The notes under the pieces: generated by a model
Seen by the model: only the letters and a program-made list of their open reading frames with translations
Told to the model about the DNA's origin: nothing
Database searches by the model: none
In this document: piece after piece, positions 9,480-18,932 of the stretch
Position numbering within the stretch: position 1 is the stretch's first letter
How the letters are laid out: each line of letters begins with the position of its first letter
Origin: a virus
Taxonomy: Duplodnaviria > Caudoviricetes
DNA: 64,000 nt
Direction: 5' to 3' (one strand)
IMG/VR virus record: IMGVR_UViG_3300037602_000018
Span: 1 to 64,000 of that record
Program-made: the position numbers and the translations under genes

Positions 9480-9543
9480 TCCTAACGGTTTGGTTATGCT
9501 GACGTTGTGAGGAACGAGCAATGCAGTATAGGTGTTGTTAGGC
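9480..9543. repeat. attC-like site 0
   Basis: TCCTAAC-ggtttggt-TATGCTG(A)CGTTG...CAATG-CAGTATA-ggtgtt-GTTAGGC; one bulged base and G.T pairs. Confidence 0.75.
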
Positions 9544-9570
9544 TTTCGTTTAATTTTAAAATAGATAAAT

Positions 9571-9834
9571 ATGAAAATAGTAACAGAATTAGGAAACAAG
9601 TACTCTCGTGGAAGTTTTGAAGACTACACAAGGAGAGCAAAAATATGTATGGAGACCAATGAAGGACATACACACCAAATAGATATTTACACAACTGACA
9701 CGAACAAGGAAAGTGTAGAAATGTTTTTGCGAAGCCGAGCAAGTGAAAAAGTAAGTGACTTGAAAATAACCTATTGGGCAACAAGAGAAGCTGATGATAG
9801 TGCTTCAAAACTTATTGAGGATTGGCTTAATTAG
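9571..9834 (+). CDS. Cassette-borne hypothetical protein
   Basis: 87 aa, inside the first GTT...AAC module. Confidence 0.7.
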   Translation: MKIVTELGNKYSRGSFEDYTRRAKICMETNEGHTHQIDIYTTDTNKESVEMFLRSRASEKVSDLKITYWATREADDSASKLIEDWLN

Positions 9835-9860
9835 AAATGCGGGAGCTTAATTTTTAAACT

Positions 9861-10061
9861 ATGGATTATTACAAAGAGACAGTAGATAAGATTCTATCTG
9901 AATTATCAATAGCTGGAAATTTCACAATTTTCATTTGGATATTATTTCAGCGACACAAGTTCAATAAAATACATTCTCTTGTAGAACAAGGCATGGCCGT
10001 GAAATTTGCGTTCAGAGAAGCTAAAAAATTGAAGCGGAGCGTTTCGACCGAAGGCAATTAA
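9861..10061 (+). CDS. Cassette-borne hypothetical protein
   Basis: 66 aa; stop abuts GCCCTAAC. Confidence 0.6.
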   Translation: MDYYKETVDKILSELSIAGNFTIFIWILFQRHKFNKIHSLVEQGMAVKFAFREAKKLKRSVSTEGN

Positions 10062-10062
10062 G

Positions 10063-10157
10063 CCCTAACGTTTTGCGTATATGAGCAGTACGCAAAACAA
10101 GAACTTTAAAATTAAATATAAACCTTAATAGCGTATTGCTTATATACGCTGTTAGCA
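10063..10157. repeat. attC-like site 1
   Basis: CCCTAAC-gtttt-GCGTATATGAGCAGTACGC...GCGTATTGCTTATATACGC-t-GTTAGCA; 19-bp arms with two G.T pairs. Confidence 0.8.
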
Positions 10158-10170
10158 AACGTTTTTAAAT

Positions 10171-10323
10171 ATGGAATTTGATGAATCAAAACAAGAAGAC
10201 CCTAAATACTTGATTGAATATTACAAGTCAAGAATCGAAATATGGAAAAACCATCCCAAGGGGAAGAAGATAGTAGATAGATACAAGAAAGCAGTTGAAA
10301 GACTTTCTGTAAATGTTTGCTAA
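10171..10323 (+). CDS. Cassette-borne 50-aa protein (below ORF-track cutoff)
   Basis: MEFDESKQEDPKYLIEYYKSRIEIW...VNVC; its TAA lies within the GCTAAC box. Confidence 0.7.
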   Translation: MEFDESKQEDPKYLIEYYKSRIEIWKNHPKGKKIVDRYKKAVERLSVNVC

Positions 10324-10439
10324 CGGTTGCGTGTATGAAACGTTGCCAACACAATTGTTAATAAAATGAACAGAATTATAAAATTAGTATAAACTTAAAA
10401 AAGACCACGAAAGGCAATGTTTTATACACGTTGTTATGT
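10318..10439. repeat. attC-like site 2
   Basis: TGCTAAC-ggttg-CGTGTATGAAACGTTGCC...GGCAATGTTTTATACACG-tt-GTTATGT. Confidence 0.8.
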
Positions 10440-10452
10440 GGCGTTAATTATT

Positions 10453-10611
10453 ATGAGAACATTAGTAAATTACATCATACAAATTTTTTGCAAACATGAC
10501 TTTGAAATAGAAGATACGTTTGTAACAACAGATTACGGTAAACAAGGTGGAAAACGATATTTATATTGCAAAAAATGTGGATACCACACTAAACACTGGA
10601 AGCACGTTTAA
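10453..10611 (+). CDS. Cassette-borne small Cys/His (Zn-finger-like) protein
   Basis: MRTLVNYIIQIFCKHDF...YCKKCG; ATG 10453 preferred over 10417. Confidence 0.7.
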   Translation: MRTLVNYIIQIFCKHDFEIEDTFVTTDYGKQGGKRYLYCKKCGYHTKHWKHV

Positions 10612-10615
10612 TGCC

Positions 10616-10817
10616 ACATAACGCCTACGGCTATGTTGTCGTTGCGATTTATTAACAAATAATGATATTGAAATGAAAAACTTTGAAGAACTAAAAGAAG
10701 CTATAAAAAGCAATAGCTTTAATGAAAGCCACCTAAGTAGCACACAAGTAGTTGACTTAGAAACGGTAATTGCATTAATAGAGGATTTTGAGCAATGCAA
10801 TATAGCTAATGTTGTAA
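10616..10817. repeat. attC-like site 3 (ORF start inside loop)
   Basis: ACATAAC-gcctac-GGCTATGTTG(T)CGTTGC...GCAATGCAATATAGCT-aat-GTTGTAA. Confidence 0.75.
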
Positions 10818-10918
10818 AACCGAAGGGAACGTTACCCGTTTCACTGCTTGATATTTCACAAGATGAATGGATTGAAAACTGTGAGCGTATTTTCGGAGGA
10901 AGCCCAAACAAAGGGTAA
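10673..10918 (+). CDS. Cassette ORF reading through the GTT box
   Basis: ...CNIAN-VVKPKGTL...; GTT 10811 is an in-frame Val codon. Confidence 0.7.
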   Translation: MKNFEELKEAIKSNSFNESHLSSTQVVDLETVIALIEDFEQCNIANVVKPKGTLPVSLLDISQDEWIENCERIFGGSPNKG

Positions 10919-10922
10919 TGTT

Positions 10923-11155
10923 TTACAACGGTTTGTGTAAACGTCTGTAAATTAAAATTACTACAATGGATAAAATAGAATTAGCAAAGTGGCTTCACGA
11001 TAACTATGAAGAAGTTGCAAAAGAGCAAAATTGGAACACGCAAGAAAATTGCAAAGTAGAATTTGACACTTTGCCTGACGCTAATAAGCGAACAATGATT
11101 GAAATAGCGGAAAGACTTCTCAATTTTAATTTATTGCGTTTACATTTTGTTGTAG
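10923..11155. repeat. attC-like site 4 (ORF start inside loop)
   Basis: TTACAAC-ggttt-GTGTAAACGTCTGTAAATTAAAATT...AATTTTAATTTATTGCGTTTACAT-ttt-GTTGTAG. Confidence 0.8.
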
Positions 11156-11253
11156 GGCGAAGCGAACAGTTGCCCGAAAGTGAAAAACTATGCAGAAATA
11201 ACCAAAACTTTAAGTGTAATTGTGATTGGCGAAAAGAGTGCCCTAACTTTTAA
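10966..11253 (+). CDS. Cassette ORF reading through the GTT box
   Basis: ...LRLHF-VVGRSEQL... with a Cys-rich tail; GTT 11149 in frame. Confidence 0.75.
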   Translation: MDKIELAKWLHDNYEEVAKEQNWNTQENCKVEFDTLPDANKRTMIEIAERLLNFNLLRLHFVVGRSEQLPESEKLCRNNQNFKCNCDWRKECPNF

Positions 11254-11263
11254 GGGCAATTGC

Positions 11264-11397
11264 CTACAACGGTTAAGTATAAAAATAGTTTATTATGAGA
11301 AGTAAAACAGCAAAAAGAATATTAGAAGAAACTCCGCAAGAAGTAAAAGACAAAGTGCAAGACTATGCTAATAAATTGATTTTATACAATGTTAGCC
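11264..11397. repeat. attC-like site 5 (ORF start at loop edge)
   Basis: CTACAAC-ggttaa-GTATAAAAATAGTTTATTA...TAATAAATTGATTTTATAC-aat-GTTAGCC. Confidence 0.8.
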
Positions 11398-11516
11398 AAC
11401 AACGTGAACTGTTAATTGCGTATGAAAAGAACCATTATACACCACAAGAATGGGCTTTAGCAAGTAAGCAATGTATTGAAGATATAGACAACTTCTTAGC
11501 AATTAATTGTGGCTAA
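11295..11516 (+). CDS. Cassette ORF reading through the GTT box
   Basis: ...LILYN-VSQQRELL...; GTT 11391 in frame; stop TAA inside GGCTAAC. Confidence 0.75.
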   Translation: MRSKTAKRILEETPQEVKDKVQDYANKLILYNVSQQRELLIAYEKNHYTPQEWALASKQCIEDIDNFLAINCG

Positions 11517-11600
11517 CGGTTTGTGTATGTGCCGTGCAAACCACTAAAGATTGAATTACGGCACTAACTTTCGCTGCATGGCATATACACTTTGTTGTGC
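11511..11600. repeat. attC-like site 6
   Basis: GGCTAAC-ggttt-GTGTATGTGCCGTGCA...TGCATGGCATATACAC-ttt-GTTGTGC. Confidence 0.8.
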
Positions 11601-11626
11601 GTATGTGGCGGTTTAAAAGAACGAAA

Positions 11627-11827
11627 ATGAGTTTATTATACAAACCAAAAGAAGAACAGACTACTACTTGCGAAATAAAGCAGGAAGATGGTAGAGTAGT
11701 TTTAGACTTCTACTCTGATTGTGGAAAGTTCGGAACTGATGAAATGCTTGACGGCTACAAATTAACGCCAGAAAGATTGTTGCAGATTTTACAGGATAGG
11801 GATGATTACTCCGAAGACGAATTGTAG
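11627..11827 (+). CDS. Cassette-borne acidic hypothetical protein
   Basis: MSLLYKPKEE...; frame is open back to GTT 11594. Confidence 0.7.
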   Translation: MSLLYKPKEEQTTTCEIKQEDGRVVLDFYSDCGKFGTDEMLDGYKLTPERLLQILQDRDDYSEDEL

Positions 11828-11834
11828 CCATTAC

Positions 11835-11852
11835 GCACAACTTTTGTTGTAG
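11835..11852. repeat. Collapsed attC-like site 7
   Basis: GCACAAC-tttt-GTTGTAG: both boxes kept, internal arms absent. Confidence 0.65.
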
Positions 11853-11871
11853 CATCGTAAAGCGAACGATT

Positions 11872-12006
11872 ATGAAAGAAAAGAGCGGATATAAAAGAGA
11901 ATGTTTAAGTACTCGTTTTGATGAGTGGAGAATGAGATGGGTGAGAAAATGGAAATACACTTGGTCTGATGGCACAATAGAAATTAAACACACTTATAGC
12001 AAGTGA
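11872..12006 (+). CDS. Cassette-borne 44-aa Trp-rich protein (below ORF-track cutoff)
   Basis: MKEKSGYKRECLSTRFDEWRMRWVRKWKYTWSDGTIEIKHTYSK fills the module 11846-12022. Confidence 0.65.
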   Translation: MKEKSGYKRECLSTRFDEWRMRWVRKWKYTWSDGTIEIKHTYSK

Positions 12007-12015
12007 GCGTATGTG

Positions 12016-12143
12016 CTACAACGGTTTGGATAAACAGCGTTTAATTATGAAAAAGAAGAAATTAACAATCATAGCAGCCCATGATAGAGGAAGAACAACG
12101 GTGGCAAAACAAGCCATTAAATGCGGTTTATCTGTTGTTGTAA
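12016..12143. repeat. attC-like site 8 (ORF start at loop edge)
   Basis: CTACAAC-ggttt-GGATAAACAGCGTTTAAT...ATTAAATGCGGTTTATCT-gtt-GTTGTAA. Confidence 0.8.
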
Positions 12144-12229
12144 AATCGGGTTGTCGATATTGTAGTGGAAACAATATTCTCAGCTTCGACAATGATAAGT
12201 ACTGTAAGGATTGTGACAAGATGTTGTAA
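12047..12229 (+). CDS. Cassette ORF reading through the GTT box; C-terminal CxxC...CxxC Zn ribbon
   Basis: MKKKKLTII...GLSV-VVKSGCRYC...CKDC; GTT 12137 in frame. Confidence 0.7.
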   Translation: MKKKKLTIIAAHDRGRTTVAKQAIKCGLSVVVKSGCRYCSGNNILSFDNDKYCKDCDKML

Positions 12230-12240
12230 GGCAAACTGTT

Positions 12241-12382
12241 TTACAACGGTGAAGGTATGGATAGTTATTTACCGATTTAAAAGATAAAATTATGACAAAA
12301 GAACAAGTATTAGATGCAGTAGAAAAAGCAATAGATAAAGCCTTTGAGCGAGGTAAAGAATTATCTATACATAGTGTTAGCG
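12241..12382. repeat. attC-like site 9 (ORF start inside loop)
   Basis: TTACAAC-ggtgaag-GTATGGATAGTT...AATTATCTATAC-atagt-GTTAGCG. Confidence 0.75.
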
Positions 12383-12525
12383 ATTGTTTTTCTTTTGCTA
12401 AATACTTAAATGAAAACTTCCACTACTTTGATAATACAGATGTAGGTGATGTTTACAAAGATAATGATGGGCAAGGACTTTATTCTGAAAAGGACATTTA
12501 TGATGAGTGGTTAAATAATCGCTAA
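12292..12525 (+). CDS. Cassette ORF reading through the GTT box
   Basis: ...LSIHS-VSDCFSF...; GTT 12376 in frame; stop TAA inside CGCTAAC. Confidence 0.75.
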   Translation: MTKEQVLDAVEKAIDKAFERGKELSIHSVSDCFSFAKYLNENFHYFDNTDVGDVYKDNDGQGLYSEKDIYDEWLNNR

Positions 12526-12843
12526 CTACAATATAAACAACGTTTAAAAATACAACCATGCATGTTTATTAAAATTATATTCAAATTATATTCAAATGTT
12601 AAATAAATCAGATGAAGTACCTAAATTAGAATTTTTTACTAAAGACGAACAAATTAAATTTCTTAATTTAAGAATAGAAGCTTTAGAAAAAAGAGTAAAA
12701 ATACTTGAAAATGAAAAAACAAAGAAAGAAATATAAATTTAAAAATCAGATAATTATTGCTGATAATCATTGGGGAGCATGGAATGTAGCTTGTAATATT
12801 AGTAATGAATCAGTTAAATTATGTGATATAAAACTTATAGAAG

Positions 12844-15947: not shown

Positions 15948-16204
15948 AAGAACATTTAAATAAAGCAATTGGAATATTGGATAGTTATATATCTACAGAG
16001 TCAGAAGGATATATTATTTTATATAAAGGAAAACAAATTAAATTACCTAGTGGTAAGAGTATATGGAGTAAGAAAAATCATGCTAGTGCAGCATTAACTA
16101 ATTCTTTATATGGACATTTTAGTAAATATAGACATGGTATTACTCCTTCAGAAGTTACTAAATTACTTATTAAAGAAGGTTTAATTGAAGTTAAAAAATT
16201 ATGA
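15944..16204 (+). CDS. Hypothetical protein
   Basis: ATGA overlaps at both ends. Confidence 0.65.
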   Translation: MKEHLNKAIGILDSYISTESEGYIILYKGKQIKLPSGKSIWSKKNHASAALTNSLYGHFSKYRHGITPSEVTKLLIKEGLIEVKKL

Positions 16205-17040
16205 AAATAAATAAATATCCAGATGGTAGTAGTTATGTACAAGGAAGTTCACTATTAAGTACAAATCACATTTTTAAAATAAATTCTTATGAAAATTTAT
16301 GGCAATTAAATCAATTTGTAGATTGTTTAAATAATCAAGGAATTACTCCTAATATTACTATTCCAAATCTTATAGATGCTCAAGCAGATAGAAGATTTCA
16401 GTTTAATCAATCTAGTGGTTTAAAATTAGTATGTAAGTTTCTTAATGAAATGAATGCTAAGTTTAAAATATTCCATCCACATAATCCTGAAGTTGTAGAA
16501 GCTTTAATGGATAATGTTGAGATTATTGATAATAATGAATTTATTACTAAGATATTATTAGAAAGTTTAATTAAAGATTGTCCAAGTATTTTACAAAATG
16601 GTATTAAAAATGATAATTTAATTTTAATGTCATCAGATGCAGGTGGGTTTAAACCTTTAATGAAATTATGTGATAAAATTAAATGGCAAGGGGAGACTTT
16701 TAGTGCTAGTAAAGCTAGAATGTCTAAAGGAATGACACAAATGATAGGATGTGAAGATTTTAACGGTAAAGATATTCTCATTATAGATGATATATGCGTT
16801 TACGGAGGTACTTTTAAAGGATTATCTCAGTTACTTAGAGAAAGAAATTGTGGTAAATTATATTTAGCAGTATCACATATGACTGTGCAAAATATAGGAG
16901 AAGACCCTGTAACTAATTACTTTGATAAGGTGTTTACTACTAATAGTAAGTATGATGAATACTTTACATATATTGGACAAGGATACGATGAAATAATGGG
17001 TGTAATACCAGAAAATTTAGAAATAATAAAAATGTTTTAA
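16201..17040 (+). CDS. Ribose-phosphate pyrophosphokinase-like protein (Prs/Adps-like)
   Basis: YPDGS, AQADRRF, HPHN, SDAGG, PRPP-binding loop LIIDDICVYGGTF, LAVSH. Confidence 0.85.
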   Translation: MKINKYPDGSSYVQGSSLLSTNHIFKINSYENLWQLNQFVDCLNNQGITPNITIPNLIDAQADRRFQFNQSSGLKLVCKFLNEMNAKFKIFHPHNPEVVEALMDNVEIIDNNEFITKILLESLIKDCPSILQNGIKNDNLILMSSDAGGFKPLMKLCDKIKWQGETFSASKARMSKGMTQMIGCEDFNGKDILIIDDICVYGGTFKGLSQLLRERNCGKLYLAVSHMTVQNIGEDPVTNYFDKVFTTNSKYDEYFTYIGQGYDEIMGVIPENLEIIKMF

Positions 17041-17041
17041 T

Positions 17042-17308
17042 ATGAAAAATTTACACATTTATGTAGAAGGAGATATTAATGATGGTGATTACATCTCTGA
17101 AGTAACTGATATTAGCGATTTAACTAAAGAAGAAGTTATAGATATTTACAATAAATTAAAAAGTTATAATCCTAGAAAAGGTAAATGTCCTGATGAAATA
17201 ATGGATTATCTTCCTTGGTTGGATAATGAAGAACTTCATACCATAACAGACGTACAATTACAAATCATTGAAAATATAGAATTAAAAGATTTAGAAAAAA
17301 ATGTTTAA
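17042..17308 (+). CDS. Acidic hypothetical protein
   Basis: Lies between the Prs-like and NAMPT-like genes. Confidence 0.6.
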   Translation: MKNLHIYVEGDINDGDYISEVTDISDLTKEEVIDIYNKLKSYNPRKGKCPDEIMDYLPWLDNEELHTITDVQLQIIENIELKDLEKNV

Positions 17309-18932
17309 AATAAATCCACTATATCTATCTGATGGATATAAAATTTCGCACAAAGCCATGTTAGCTAAAGGTACTACTAAATTATATGGAACATGGATTC
17401 CTAGAAGTACTAAACATGCTCCTAAAGGTATTAGTAAAGTAGTATCTTTTGGTCAACAAATGGTATGGCAGTATATTCATGATGCTTTTGAAGATAATTT
17501 CTTTTCTCAACCAAAACATAGAGCTGAAGAATTTCAAAAAGATATTTTAGAATATCTTGGAATGGAATACAATGGTAAACATTTTGAAGAATTATGGGAT
17601 TTAGGTTATTTACCTATTAGAGTTAAATCTTTACCTGAAGGTATTGAAACAGACCCTAATATTCCTCACATGACTTTTGTAAATACAGTAGATGGGTTCG
17701 CATGGTTGACATTATATTTAGAAACTTTAGTTTCTTCATTAGCATGGAAACCAAGTACATCAGCTACAATAGCTTTACAATATCGTAGAAATGTTGAAAA
17801 AGCTTTTAATGAAACTTGTAAAGACCAAAAAGAATTAATTCCATTTATGTGCCATGATTTCTCTGCAAGAGGATTAAATCCACATGATATGATTAGTTCA
17901 GGTTTAGGCCATGCAACTAGTTTTAGAGGTTCTGATACATTATCTGTTATTCCAGCAGCTAGATATTATTATGGTGAAAAAGATGTCTGTATAAACTCTG
18001 TAAATGCTTCTGAACATTCAGTTTCAACTACTAAGATATTTACTGTAGGTGAAAAGCAAATGATATTAGATTGGTGTAAAGAATTTCCTACAGGTATATT
18101 ATCTATTGTAGCTGATACATTTGATTTATGGAAATTAATTACAGAGTATCTTACTGATCCTGAAGTAAAAGAAGCTGTATTAGCTAGAGATGGTAAATTA
18201 GTAATTAGACCTGATTCAGGTGATCCTGTAGATATTGTTTGTGGTAATGCTTGGAGAGTTCAAGGATGCACAGATGCTGTTAGAGAAAAAGTGGGAGAAG
18301 GTGGTATGGTTTATCACTATATAGATAAAAAGTATTATGAAATTTTTACTAATCAAGCTACAGGTAAACCTTATTTTTCAGAACCTAATGATATATTACC
18401 AGAACAAAAAGGAGTAATAGAACTTCTTTGGGATATATTTGGAGGTACTATTAATAAACAAGGTTATAAAGTATTAGATTCTCATATTGGAGCTATTTAT
18501 GGTGATTCAATTACTATTGATAGACAAGTTCAAATCTATGAAAGATTAAAAGCTAAAGGTTTTGCAGCTAGTAATATTGTGCTTGGAATAGGCTCATTTT
18601 CATATGGTTACAATAGTAGAGACACTCTGGGTTGGGCTGCTAAAGGTAGTTGGTTTGAAGTTGAAGAAATTTTTGATACATCGAATAGTTTTTCAAGAGA
18701 AGTTAAATCTTATAATATTTACAAAGACCCAGTAACAGATGATGGTACTAAAAAATCTTTAAAAGGATTGTGTCAAGTATCTCAGGATAAACATGGAGAA
18801 TATGTAGTTTATACAGAATGTTCTAAAGAAGCTGAAGAAGTTGGATTATTACAAACTATTTATGAAGATGGTAAGTTTCATAATCAAACTACTTTAACTG
18901 AAGTTAGAAGGCAAATAAATACAATAGTTTAA
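17301..18932 (+). CDS. nadV: Nicotinamide phosphoribosyltransferase-like protein (NAMPT/Namat)
   Basis: DGYKISH, HDFSARG, ASEHSV, VIRPDSGDP, IYGDSIT and KDPVTDDGTKKSLKG motifs. Confidence 0.9.
   Translation: MFKINPLYLSDGYKISHKAMLAKGTTKLYGTWIPRSTKHAPKGISKVVSFGQQMVWQYIHDAFEDNFFSQPKHRAEEFQKDILEYLGMEYNGKHFEELWDLGYLPIRVKSLPEGIETDPNIPHMTFVNTVDGFAWLTLYLETLVSSLAWKPSTSATIALQYRRNVEKAFNETCKDQKELIPFMCHDFSARGLNPHDMISSGLGHATSFRGSDTLSVIPAARYYYGEKDVCINSVNASEHSVSTTKIFTVGEKQMILDWCKEFPTGILSIVADTFDLWKLITEYLTDPEVKEAVLARDGKLVIRPDSGDPVDIVCGNAWRVQGCTDAVREKVGEGGMVYHYIDKKYYEIFTNQATGKPYFSEPNDILPEQKGVIELLWDIFGGTINKQGYKVLDSHIGAIYGDSITIDRQVQIYERLKAKGFAASNIVLGIGSFSYGYNSRDTLGWAAKGSWFEVEEIFDTSNSFSREVKSYNIYKDPVTDDGTKKSLKGLCQVSQDKHGEYVVYTECSKEAEEVGLLQTIYEDGKFHNQTTLTEVRRQINTIV

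What the first reader, a model, noticed from the sequence alone, without database searches (positions are those of the whole stretch)
10616..12525. ORFs begin inside the attC-like loops and cross the GTT box in one frame: possible combinatorial protein shuffling
Seen: five ORFs (10673, 10966, 11295, 12047, 12292) start within module A. All read the GTT box as an in-frame Val codon (10811, 11149, 11391, 12137, 12376) and end at or near the far end of module B. A sixth B-module ORF is also open in that frame from GTT 11594. Where B has its own gene, this frame often stops after 4-5 codons just before that ATG (GTT AGC AAA CGT TTT TAA; GTT ATG TGG CGT TAA; GTT GTA GCA TCG TAA). B halves look self-contained (a CRYC...CKDC ribbon; a Cys-rich tail after VVGRSEQL). 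Canonical attC sites are about 60-140 bp and generally non-coding, whereas these reach ~230 bp and encode N-termini. Inference: if exchange happens at G|TT, each rearrangement fuses a new N-half to a new C-half in frame, making a microprotein diversifier. Caveat: TAG/TAA within the boxes in other frames partly forces the frame.
Basis: partly seen in the sequence, partly recalled or inferred. Interest (0 to 1): 0.88.

Follow-up and report, generated by a model that had tools for sequence, protein, structure and literature searches.

The report
Phage cassettes that shuffle protein halves
A crAss-like phage stores small genes as swappable integron-like cassettes whose recombination hairpin encodes the front half of the protein; cassettes normally move whole, but across related phages the front and back halves have been re-paired many times at one fixed codon, giving a very large mix-and-match library of tiny proteins.

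Summary
Observation confirmed: five ORFs start in the hairpin (module A) and read GTT as Val in frame (5 observed; at most 1 in 5,000 shuffles). The halves do switch partners at that Val. One N-half has about 89 C-half families among 120 homologs. One C-half, up to 41/41 identical, has about 25 different N-halves. Halves tested are under purifying selection in that frame (pN/pS 0.04-0.22). But routine exchange is not at G|TT: all 10 cassette indels between near-identical phages, including cultured Polaribacter phages Freya and Danklef, end at AA|C, and a fused gene moves intact. The hairpins are attC-like sites reversed relative to the genes. Related phages put a 267-aa tyrosine recombinase lacking the IntI-specific insertion right after the array (array upstream in 51/53 loci), behind a conserved attI-like site. 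This genome keeps that site (~12524) but no recombinase. Best reading: a reversed-polarity integron-like array with a second, rarer exchange at GTT, mechanism inferred, that builds new in-frame chimeras. Protein functions unknown; expression untested. I found no paper describing it; this scan noted the same system on other phages.

The parts
9487..9536 (+). A0, 50-nt hairpin, leftmost (probably oldest) site
   Evidence: fold and boxes
9537..10069 (+). B0, decayed module with ORFs 9571-9834 and 9861-10061; head and tail match with one indel
10070..10150 (+). A1, 81-nt non-coding hairpin
10151..10324 (+). B1 with own gene 10171-10323
10325..10432 (+). A2, 108-nt hairpin
10433..10622 (+). B2 with own Cys/His gene 10453-10611
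10623..10929 (+). Cassette A3 (10623-10810) + B3 (10811-10929): fused ORF 10673-10918, 46+35 aa
   Evidence: each half found with other partners
10930..11270 (+). Cassette A4 (10930-11148, 219 nt) + B4 (11149-11270): fused ORF 10966-11253, 61+34 aa; N-half predicted as two helices
11271..11517 (+). Cassette A5 (11271-11390) + B5 (11391-11517): fused ORF 11295-11516, 32+41 aa; B5 92% identical in Polaribacter phage P12002L behind another N-half
11518..11841 (+). A6 (76 nt) + B6 (11594-11841): ORF open from GTT, own ATG at 11627; B6 92% identical in L107 with both neighbours different
11842..11845 (+). A7, collapsed 4-nt site between AAC and GTT
11846..12022 (+). B7 with own gene 11872-12006
12023..12247 (+). 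Cassette A8 (12023-12136) + B8 (12137-12247): fused ORF 12047-12229, 30+30 aa, C-half with two CxxC; partner switching not shown
12248..12526 (+). Cassette A9 (12248-12375) + B9 (12376-12526): fused ORF 12292-12525, 28+49 aa; next to the attI-like site, found intact in other phages and also re-paired
12524..12557 (+). attI-like docking site (AAC then TACAATATAAAC); in relatives the recombinase gene starts 26-46 nt after the AAC; no recombinase here

Best explanation
A phage-borne, integron-like cassette array with reversed polarity that has lost its recombinase. Module A is an attC-like hairpin whose recombining strand is the gene-sense strand, so the normal crossover is AA|C at its 5' end and the mobile cassette is hairpin + downstream cargo (A+B), added at an attI-like site at the 3' end of the array (shown by indels). 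The enzyme is most likely the short tyrosine recombinase that sits behind that site in related phages, with a longer relative heading similar arrays in Flavobacteriaceae chromosomes; for this phage it would have to act in trans (inferred). Because the hairpin precedes its cargo, its loop can hold the start codon and a 28-61 aa N-half read through GTT as Val into a start-less C-half (shown). A second, much rarer exchange at G|TT re-pairs hairpins with cargo (outcome shown). Most likely the same enzyme occasionally uses the other strand of two hairpins (inferred). Since the break always falls at the same codon phase, the products are in-frame chimeras, and selection keeps the halves as protein (shown for three modules). 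Net effect: slow combinatorial generation of microproteins on top of fast whole-gene gain and loss. I infer they act in host takeover or counter-defence, from the cargo of these arrays (DNA methyltransferases, a Lockin-family gene), not from the proteins themselves.
For: 10/10 cassette indels at AAC, most Freya ones at the site before the recombinase. One-side-conserved B pairs keep the upstream A 9 times and the downstream A 0 times. Gene-sense strand folds better in 173 of 196 hairpins, median -2.0 kcal/mol, matching the 2.12 kcal/mol bottom-strand bias in PMC5027507. Recombinase: 210 IMG/VR matches; array upstream in 51/53 loci, all one polarity, 45 within 150 nt; downstream 1/77; conserved attI-like motif. 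Host arrays with the same hairpins and oppositely facing genes follow a related recombinase in 5 of 9 loci fetched. Partner switching at Val; sharp DNA break at GTT. pN/pS 0.22, 0.04, 0.10. Top-strand attC recombination cuts at the other box, 1,000-10,000 times less often, for IntI1 (PMC5027507).
Against: No GTT-bounded indel was found between near-identical genomes, so the second exchange is inferred from mosaics only. No recombinase in this genome. The enzyme-site link is by adjacency, not assay. Cargo bodies also vary inside conserved heads and tails, which a crossover at GTT does not explain. pN/pS rests on 9, 4 and 2 sequences; a fourth module (2 sequences) gave 0.66.
Confidence: 0.68

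Rival explanations
1. Chimeras arise when cassettes are built: an unknown capture process attaches cargo to a hairpin at GTT, as one attC family is joined to many genes in chromosomal integrons. No exchange between existing cassettes is needed.
For: One N-half with about 89 C-half families, and one head family with 72 N-half clusters and 75 bodies. Empty 29-nt B and 39-40-nt A modules share one loop and lengths are quantised. No GTT-bounded indels.
Against: Whole B modules 94-97% identical sit behind four unrelated hairpins, and 8 C-half bodies recur behind other N-halves, so existing cargo is re-attached, not only newly captured.
Confidence: 0.17
2. Chimeras come from short-homology recombination by phage annealing proteins using the shared arms and boxes, independent of the site-specific enzyme.
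For: Arms and heads are shared among modules; Sak-type genes lie near some arrays. Some homologs share only the last residues of the N-half, i.e. the right arm.
Against: In the clearest mosaics identity stops within 0-1 nt of GTT and the other side shares no usable homology; 115 of 120 switches fall on Val.
Confidence: 0.08
3. One reading: G|TT is the normal crossover, so every rearrangement makes a new fusion.
For: Abundant partner switching at Val.
Against: 10/10 indels at AAC, a fused gene moving whole in Freya, strand bias, position of the attI-like site.
Confidence: 0.04
4. N-halves are only translation leaders or neutral filler; fused products have no joint function.
For: Promiscuous pairing suggests little co-adaptation; the C-half was not modelled with confidence (pLDDT under 55); no fold match.
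Against: The 61-aa N-half shows pN/pS 0.22 in the loop and 24 invariant columns and is predicted as two helices at pLDDT 72-90.
Confidence: 0.15

Closest known systems
Integrons (IntI, attI, attC cassettes; VchIntIA PDB 2A3V)
   Same: Hairpin sites with AAC/GTT boxes, one strand more stable, cassettes gained and lost at one crossover, docking site beside a tyrosine recombinase whose N-terminal part aligns with IntI.
   Different: Recombinase lacks the IntI-specific insertion (27 residues where IntIA has 70) and scores under the TIGR02249 cut-off. Genes face the docking site, so the hairpin precedes its cargo. Hairpins reach 219 nt or more and encode N-termini. Cargo can be a start-less half gene.
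Phage CALINs (Qi et al. 2023, PMC9892861), including Polaribacter phage P12002L
   Same: Cluster of attC-like sites without an integrase in a lytic phage; P12002L shares module B5 at 92%; one of its two tested sites recombined with IntI1.
   Different: That paper does not describe reversed polarity as a rule, the short recombinase and its site, coding hairpins or partner switching.
Fused integron cassettes and attI1 ORF-11/ORF-18 leaders (review PMC8876359)
   Same: Recombination-site DNA can supply translation starts or create fusions.
   Different: Those fusions come from loss of an attC or from the single attI; here intact hairpins carry many different N-halves joined at one codon phase.
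Shufflons (R64 pilV/Rci) - from my own knowledge
   Same: Site-specific recombination gives proteins with exchangeable C-termini in a fixed frame.
   Different: Shufflons invert a few resident segments behind one constant N-terminus; here nothing is inverted, both halves vary, and the pool is spread across many phages.

Membership tests
Integron | IntI integrase with the IntI-specific insertion | tested here: not met
   No PF00589 match in this genome. Associated recombinases score 150-203 bits against a TIGR02249 cut-off of 265; the host version lacks about 43 residues relative to 2A3V and the phage versions align with it without that insertion.
Integron | attI site next to the recombinase where cassettes are added | tested here: met
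   Conserved site 26-46 nt before the gene in relatives; Freya isolates differ by cassettes at that site; similar site at 12524 here.
Integron | attC hairpins with AAC/GTT boxes, asymmetric spacer, one strand more stable | tested here: met
   spacer 2-4 nt longer on the AAC side of the gene-sense strand; 173/196 sense-strand bias.
Integron | Canonical extrahelical bases and L-box geometry | not tested
   Bulges seen in folds but not compared with attC models.
Integron | Cassette = gene followed by its attC, genes facing away from attI | tested here: not met
   In phage arrays 159 of 168 long cargo genes lie on the recombining strand and the unit is A+B. Host arrays examined have the canonical polarity.
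Integron | Cassette gain and loss at a single crossover in the AAC triplet | tested here: met
   10/10 indels.
Integron | Single-strand hairpin recombination with replicative resolution | not testable with these tools
   Needs biochemistry; a P12002L site recombined with IntI1 in PMC9892861, one did not.
CALIN | Two or more attC-like sites with no integrase nearby | tested here: met
   Ten sites; no recombinase in a complete 103-kb genome.
Shufflon | Invertible segments changing a C-terminus | tested here: not met
   All modules co-oriented here; differences among isolates are indels, not inversions.

The most novel reading that the evidence does not exclude
Bacteroidota phages run a two-junction recombination system with a non-IntI recombinase: one junction moves whole genes, the other is used and kept by selection to join hairpin-encoded N-halves to cargo C-halves in frame. 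That would be a dedicated, population-wide microprotein-assembly machine and a visible route by which new cassettes and new small genes are born.
Probability: 0.35. Interest if true: 0.92.

Novelty: new variant of a known kind. Interest (0 to 1): 0.78.

Why it matters
How integron cassettes are created is a long-standing open question, and the origin of the many tiny orphan phage genes is another. Here recombination sites and cargo visibly re-pair at a fixed codon, many times over, and cultured phages (Freya, Danklef, P12002) with a candidate enzyme make it directly testable. It also points to an integron-like platform run by an enzyme without the insertion thought to be needed for attC chemistry, which IntI-based screens would miss.

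Tried and rejected
No tyrosine recombinase in the own genome. No IntI above cut-off in four MAGs with the hairpin or at E 1e-40 in 151 Flavobacterium genomes (its control did not ring, so that blank is weak). PHROGs gave only unknown-function families for the small ORFs. Atlas hits for the N-half were unnamed viral clusters; fold search against BFVD gave nothing at E 0.001. Helicase relatives were too distant to show an empty site. The metagenome pattern scan gave one locus. ORF 12047 gave one weak hit. An early idea that A and B move equally independently was dropped after the indels. An integrase plus IS91-type element beside hairpins in two hosts was set aside as the cognate enzyme because the single-copy recombinase is the one that heads arrays. 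Six literature searches on this system found only PMC9892861 as a close description; the library lacks most subscription papers.

Full report
Setting. The window is the first 64 kb of a complete 103-kb phage genome with direct terminal repeats. Its DNA polymerase matches crAss-like phages cr108_1, IAS and crAss001 among its best hits, and it has portal, terminase and 500-aa major head genes, so I call it crAss-like. The array (9487-12526, higher G+C) lies between the polymerase and a helicase. No tyrosine recombinase is encoded.

Observation. Modules alternate: B runs from GTT to AAC with 8-13 complementary terminal bases; A runs from AAC to GTT and is a hairpin. The five ORFs and their in-frame GTT codons are as reported. 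With boxes and arms fixed and interiors shuffled, at most 1 unit passes in 5,000 trials against 5 observed. The same frame bias holds in hundreds of modules from other phages, with the antisense strand as a control that has the same boxes: 181/286 against 44 for short B; 56/82 against 5 or fewer for long A.

Partner switching is real. The N-half of ORF 10966 has 120 listed homologs; 115 have Val at the junction and the C-halves fall into about 89 families. The C-half of ORF 11295, up to 41/41 identical, occurs behind about 25 other N-halves, one in the cultured phage P12002L; its N-half occurs with at least four other C-halves. ORF 12292 has 9 intact, 15 N-only and 15 C-only homologs, two of the C-only class being diverged intact forms. 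ORF 10673 shows the same pattern. At DNA level identity stops within one base of GTT. For one B-head family, 81 of 82 modules have an ATG-initiated N-half upstream, in 72 clusters, with 75 different bodies. Selection acts in this frame: pN/pS 0.22 for the 10966 N-half loop (9 sequences), 0.04 for the 11295 C-half (4 sequences, all 11 variable sites at third positions, each behind a different partner) and 0.10 for B6 (2 sequences); the 11295 N-half (2 sequences) was uninformative at 0.66.

But the routine crossover is AA|C. Two assemblies of one phage differ by a 779-nt hairpin-plus-methyltransferase unit bounded by TAAC. Cultured Freya isolates give six differences against Freya_10, all AAC-bounded: five at the site before the recombinase (several nested) and one internal. 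Freya_10 and _9 differ by exactly one 307-nt fused N+C gene. Two more IMG/VR pairs and the Danklef isolates add three. None is bounded by GTT. Where a shared B keeps only one neighbour it is the upstream A, 9 to 0. The window's last unit A9+B9 is intact in another phage with both outer neighbours changed. The gene-sense strand folds better in 173/196 hairpins, median 2.0 kcal/mol, like the recombining bottom strand of attC (PMC5027507). So A is an attC-like site facing the other way, and the cassette is A+B.

The enzyme. In Flavobacteriaceae and Bacteroidales genomes a 375-550 aa tyrosine recombinase precedes long arrays of the same hairpins, with genes in canonical polarity, in 5 of 9 loci fetched. 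Phages carry a 267-aa version with the catalytic R-K-H-R-H-Y residues: 210 IMG/VR matches; array upstream in 51/53 loci with enough sequence, downstream in 1/77; a conserved AAC-TATnATATATA site mostly 36-37 or 45-46 nt before the start. It lacks the IntI-specific insertion and stays below the IntI cut-off. The window's array ends in a similar site at 12524 with no gene behind it. Danklef, whose recombinase is annotated as a fragment, still shows an AAC-bounded difference, which fits activity in trans or an older polymorphism.

Mechanism. Shown: unit, crossover, docking site, polarity, in-frame mosaics, selection. Inferred: that this enzyme does it; that G|TT exchange comes from occasional use of the opposite strand, which IntI1 does 1,000-10,000 times less often, cutting at the other box (PMC5027507); that two such events keep orientation and give in-frame products. 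B+A units made that way would soon be split by the faster AA|C exchange, which would explain why none was seen, but this is also why the step is unproven. Variation of bodies inside conserved heads and tails, and quantised module lengths with shared empty loops, suggest a further capture step that I cannot explain. Function of the products is unknown: the 10966 N-half is predicted as two helices and the C-half is not modelled, with no family or fold match.

Known and new. It works like an integron but fails two defining features (IntI, polarity). As an array without enzyme it meets the CALIN definition; phage CALINs are published, including P12002L (PMC9892861). The Freya and Danklef paper read the recombinase as a sign of temperate lifestyle and does not mention integrons (PMC8776804). 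I found no paper on coding hairpins, reversed polarity, the short recombinase or partner switching. This scan has noted the platform and the fusions on other phages; two of those notes gave me leads, and every claim above was tested here. Interest 0.78.

Noticed in passing
phage arrays in L009-L185: Module lengths are quantised (A about 40, 50, 80, 118, 184 nt; many B about 120-128 nt). Empty 29-nt B and 39-40-nt A modules share the loop CGTTTTAATG, as if both module types grow from one minimal hairpin.
   Followed up: partly
window 11149-11270 and homologs: B modules have a second, inner inverted repeat about 18 nt after GTT; bodies vary freely inside a conserved 23-nt head and 13-nt tail, and many are Cys-rich (12% Cys).
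   Followed up: partly
window 11839-11848: Collapsed site with only TTTT between AAC and GTT; the same B6 is followed by a full hairpin in L107.
   Followed up: partly
L034 9644-9892: A Lockin-family gene (PF26760; an anti-defence family by my recall) lies in the hairpin-flanked block just upstream of the 10966 homolog.
   Followed up: no
L207 160-2258 and L208 9029-9790: A tyrosine recombinase (with an IS91-type transposase in L207) begins right after a hairpin with the same head GTTGAACTAAACC in two hosts: possibly an element that targets these sites.
   Followed up: partly
L225, L226, L228, L229, L233: Bacteroidota chromosomes carry long cassette arrays downstream of, and co-directional with, a non-IntI recombinase with a 110-aa or longer N-terminal extension; genes are in canonical polarity.
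   Followed up: partly
MT732463-MT732472 and MT732458-MT732462 (L316-L334): Length differences among Freya isolates (44.0-48.9 kb) are stepwise cassette gains or losses at the docking site; Danklef has a truncated recombinase and a polymorphic methyltransferase cassette.
   Followed up: yes
L056 vs L029/L300, L017 vs L058, L058 vs L277: Cargo interiors are replaced between otherwise similar cassettes at positions that are neither AAC nor GTT.
   Followed up: no
window 17301-18932: NAPRTase-family gene (PF04095), preceded by a PRPP-synthetase-like ORF at 16201-17040 by my reading: possible NAD-rebuilding pair.
   Followed up: no
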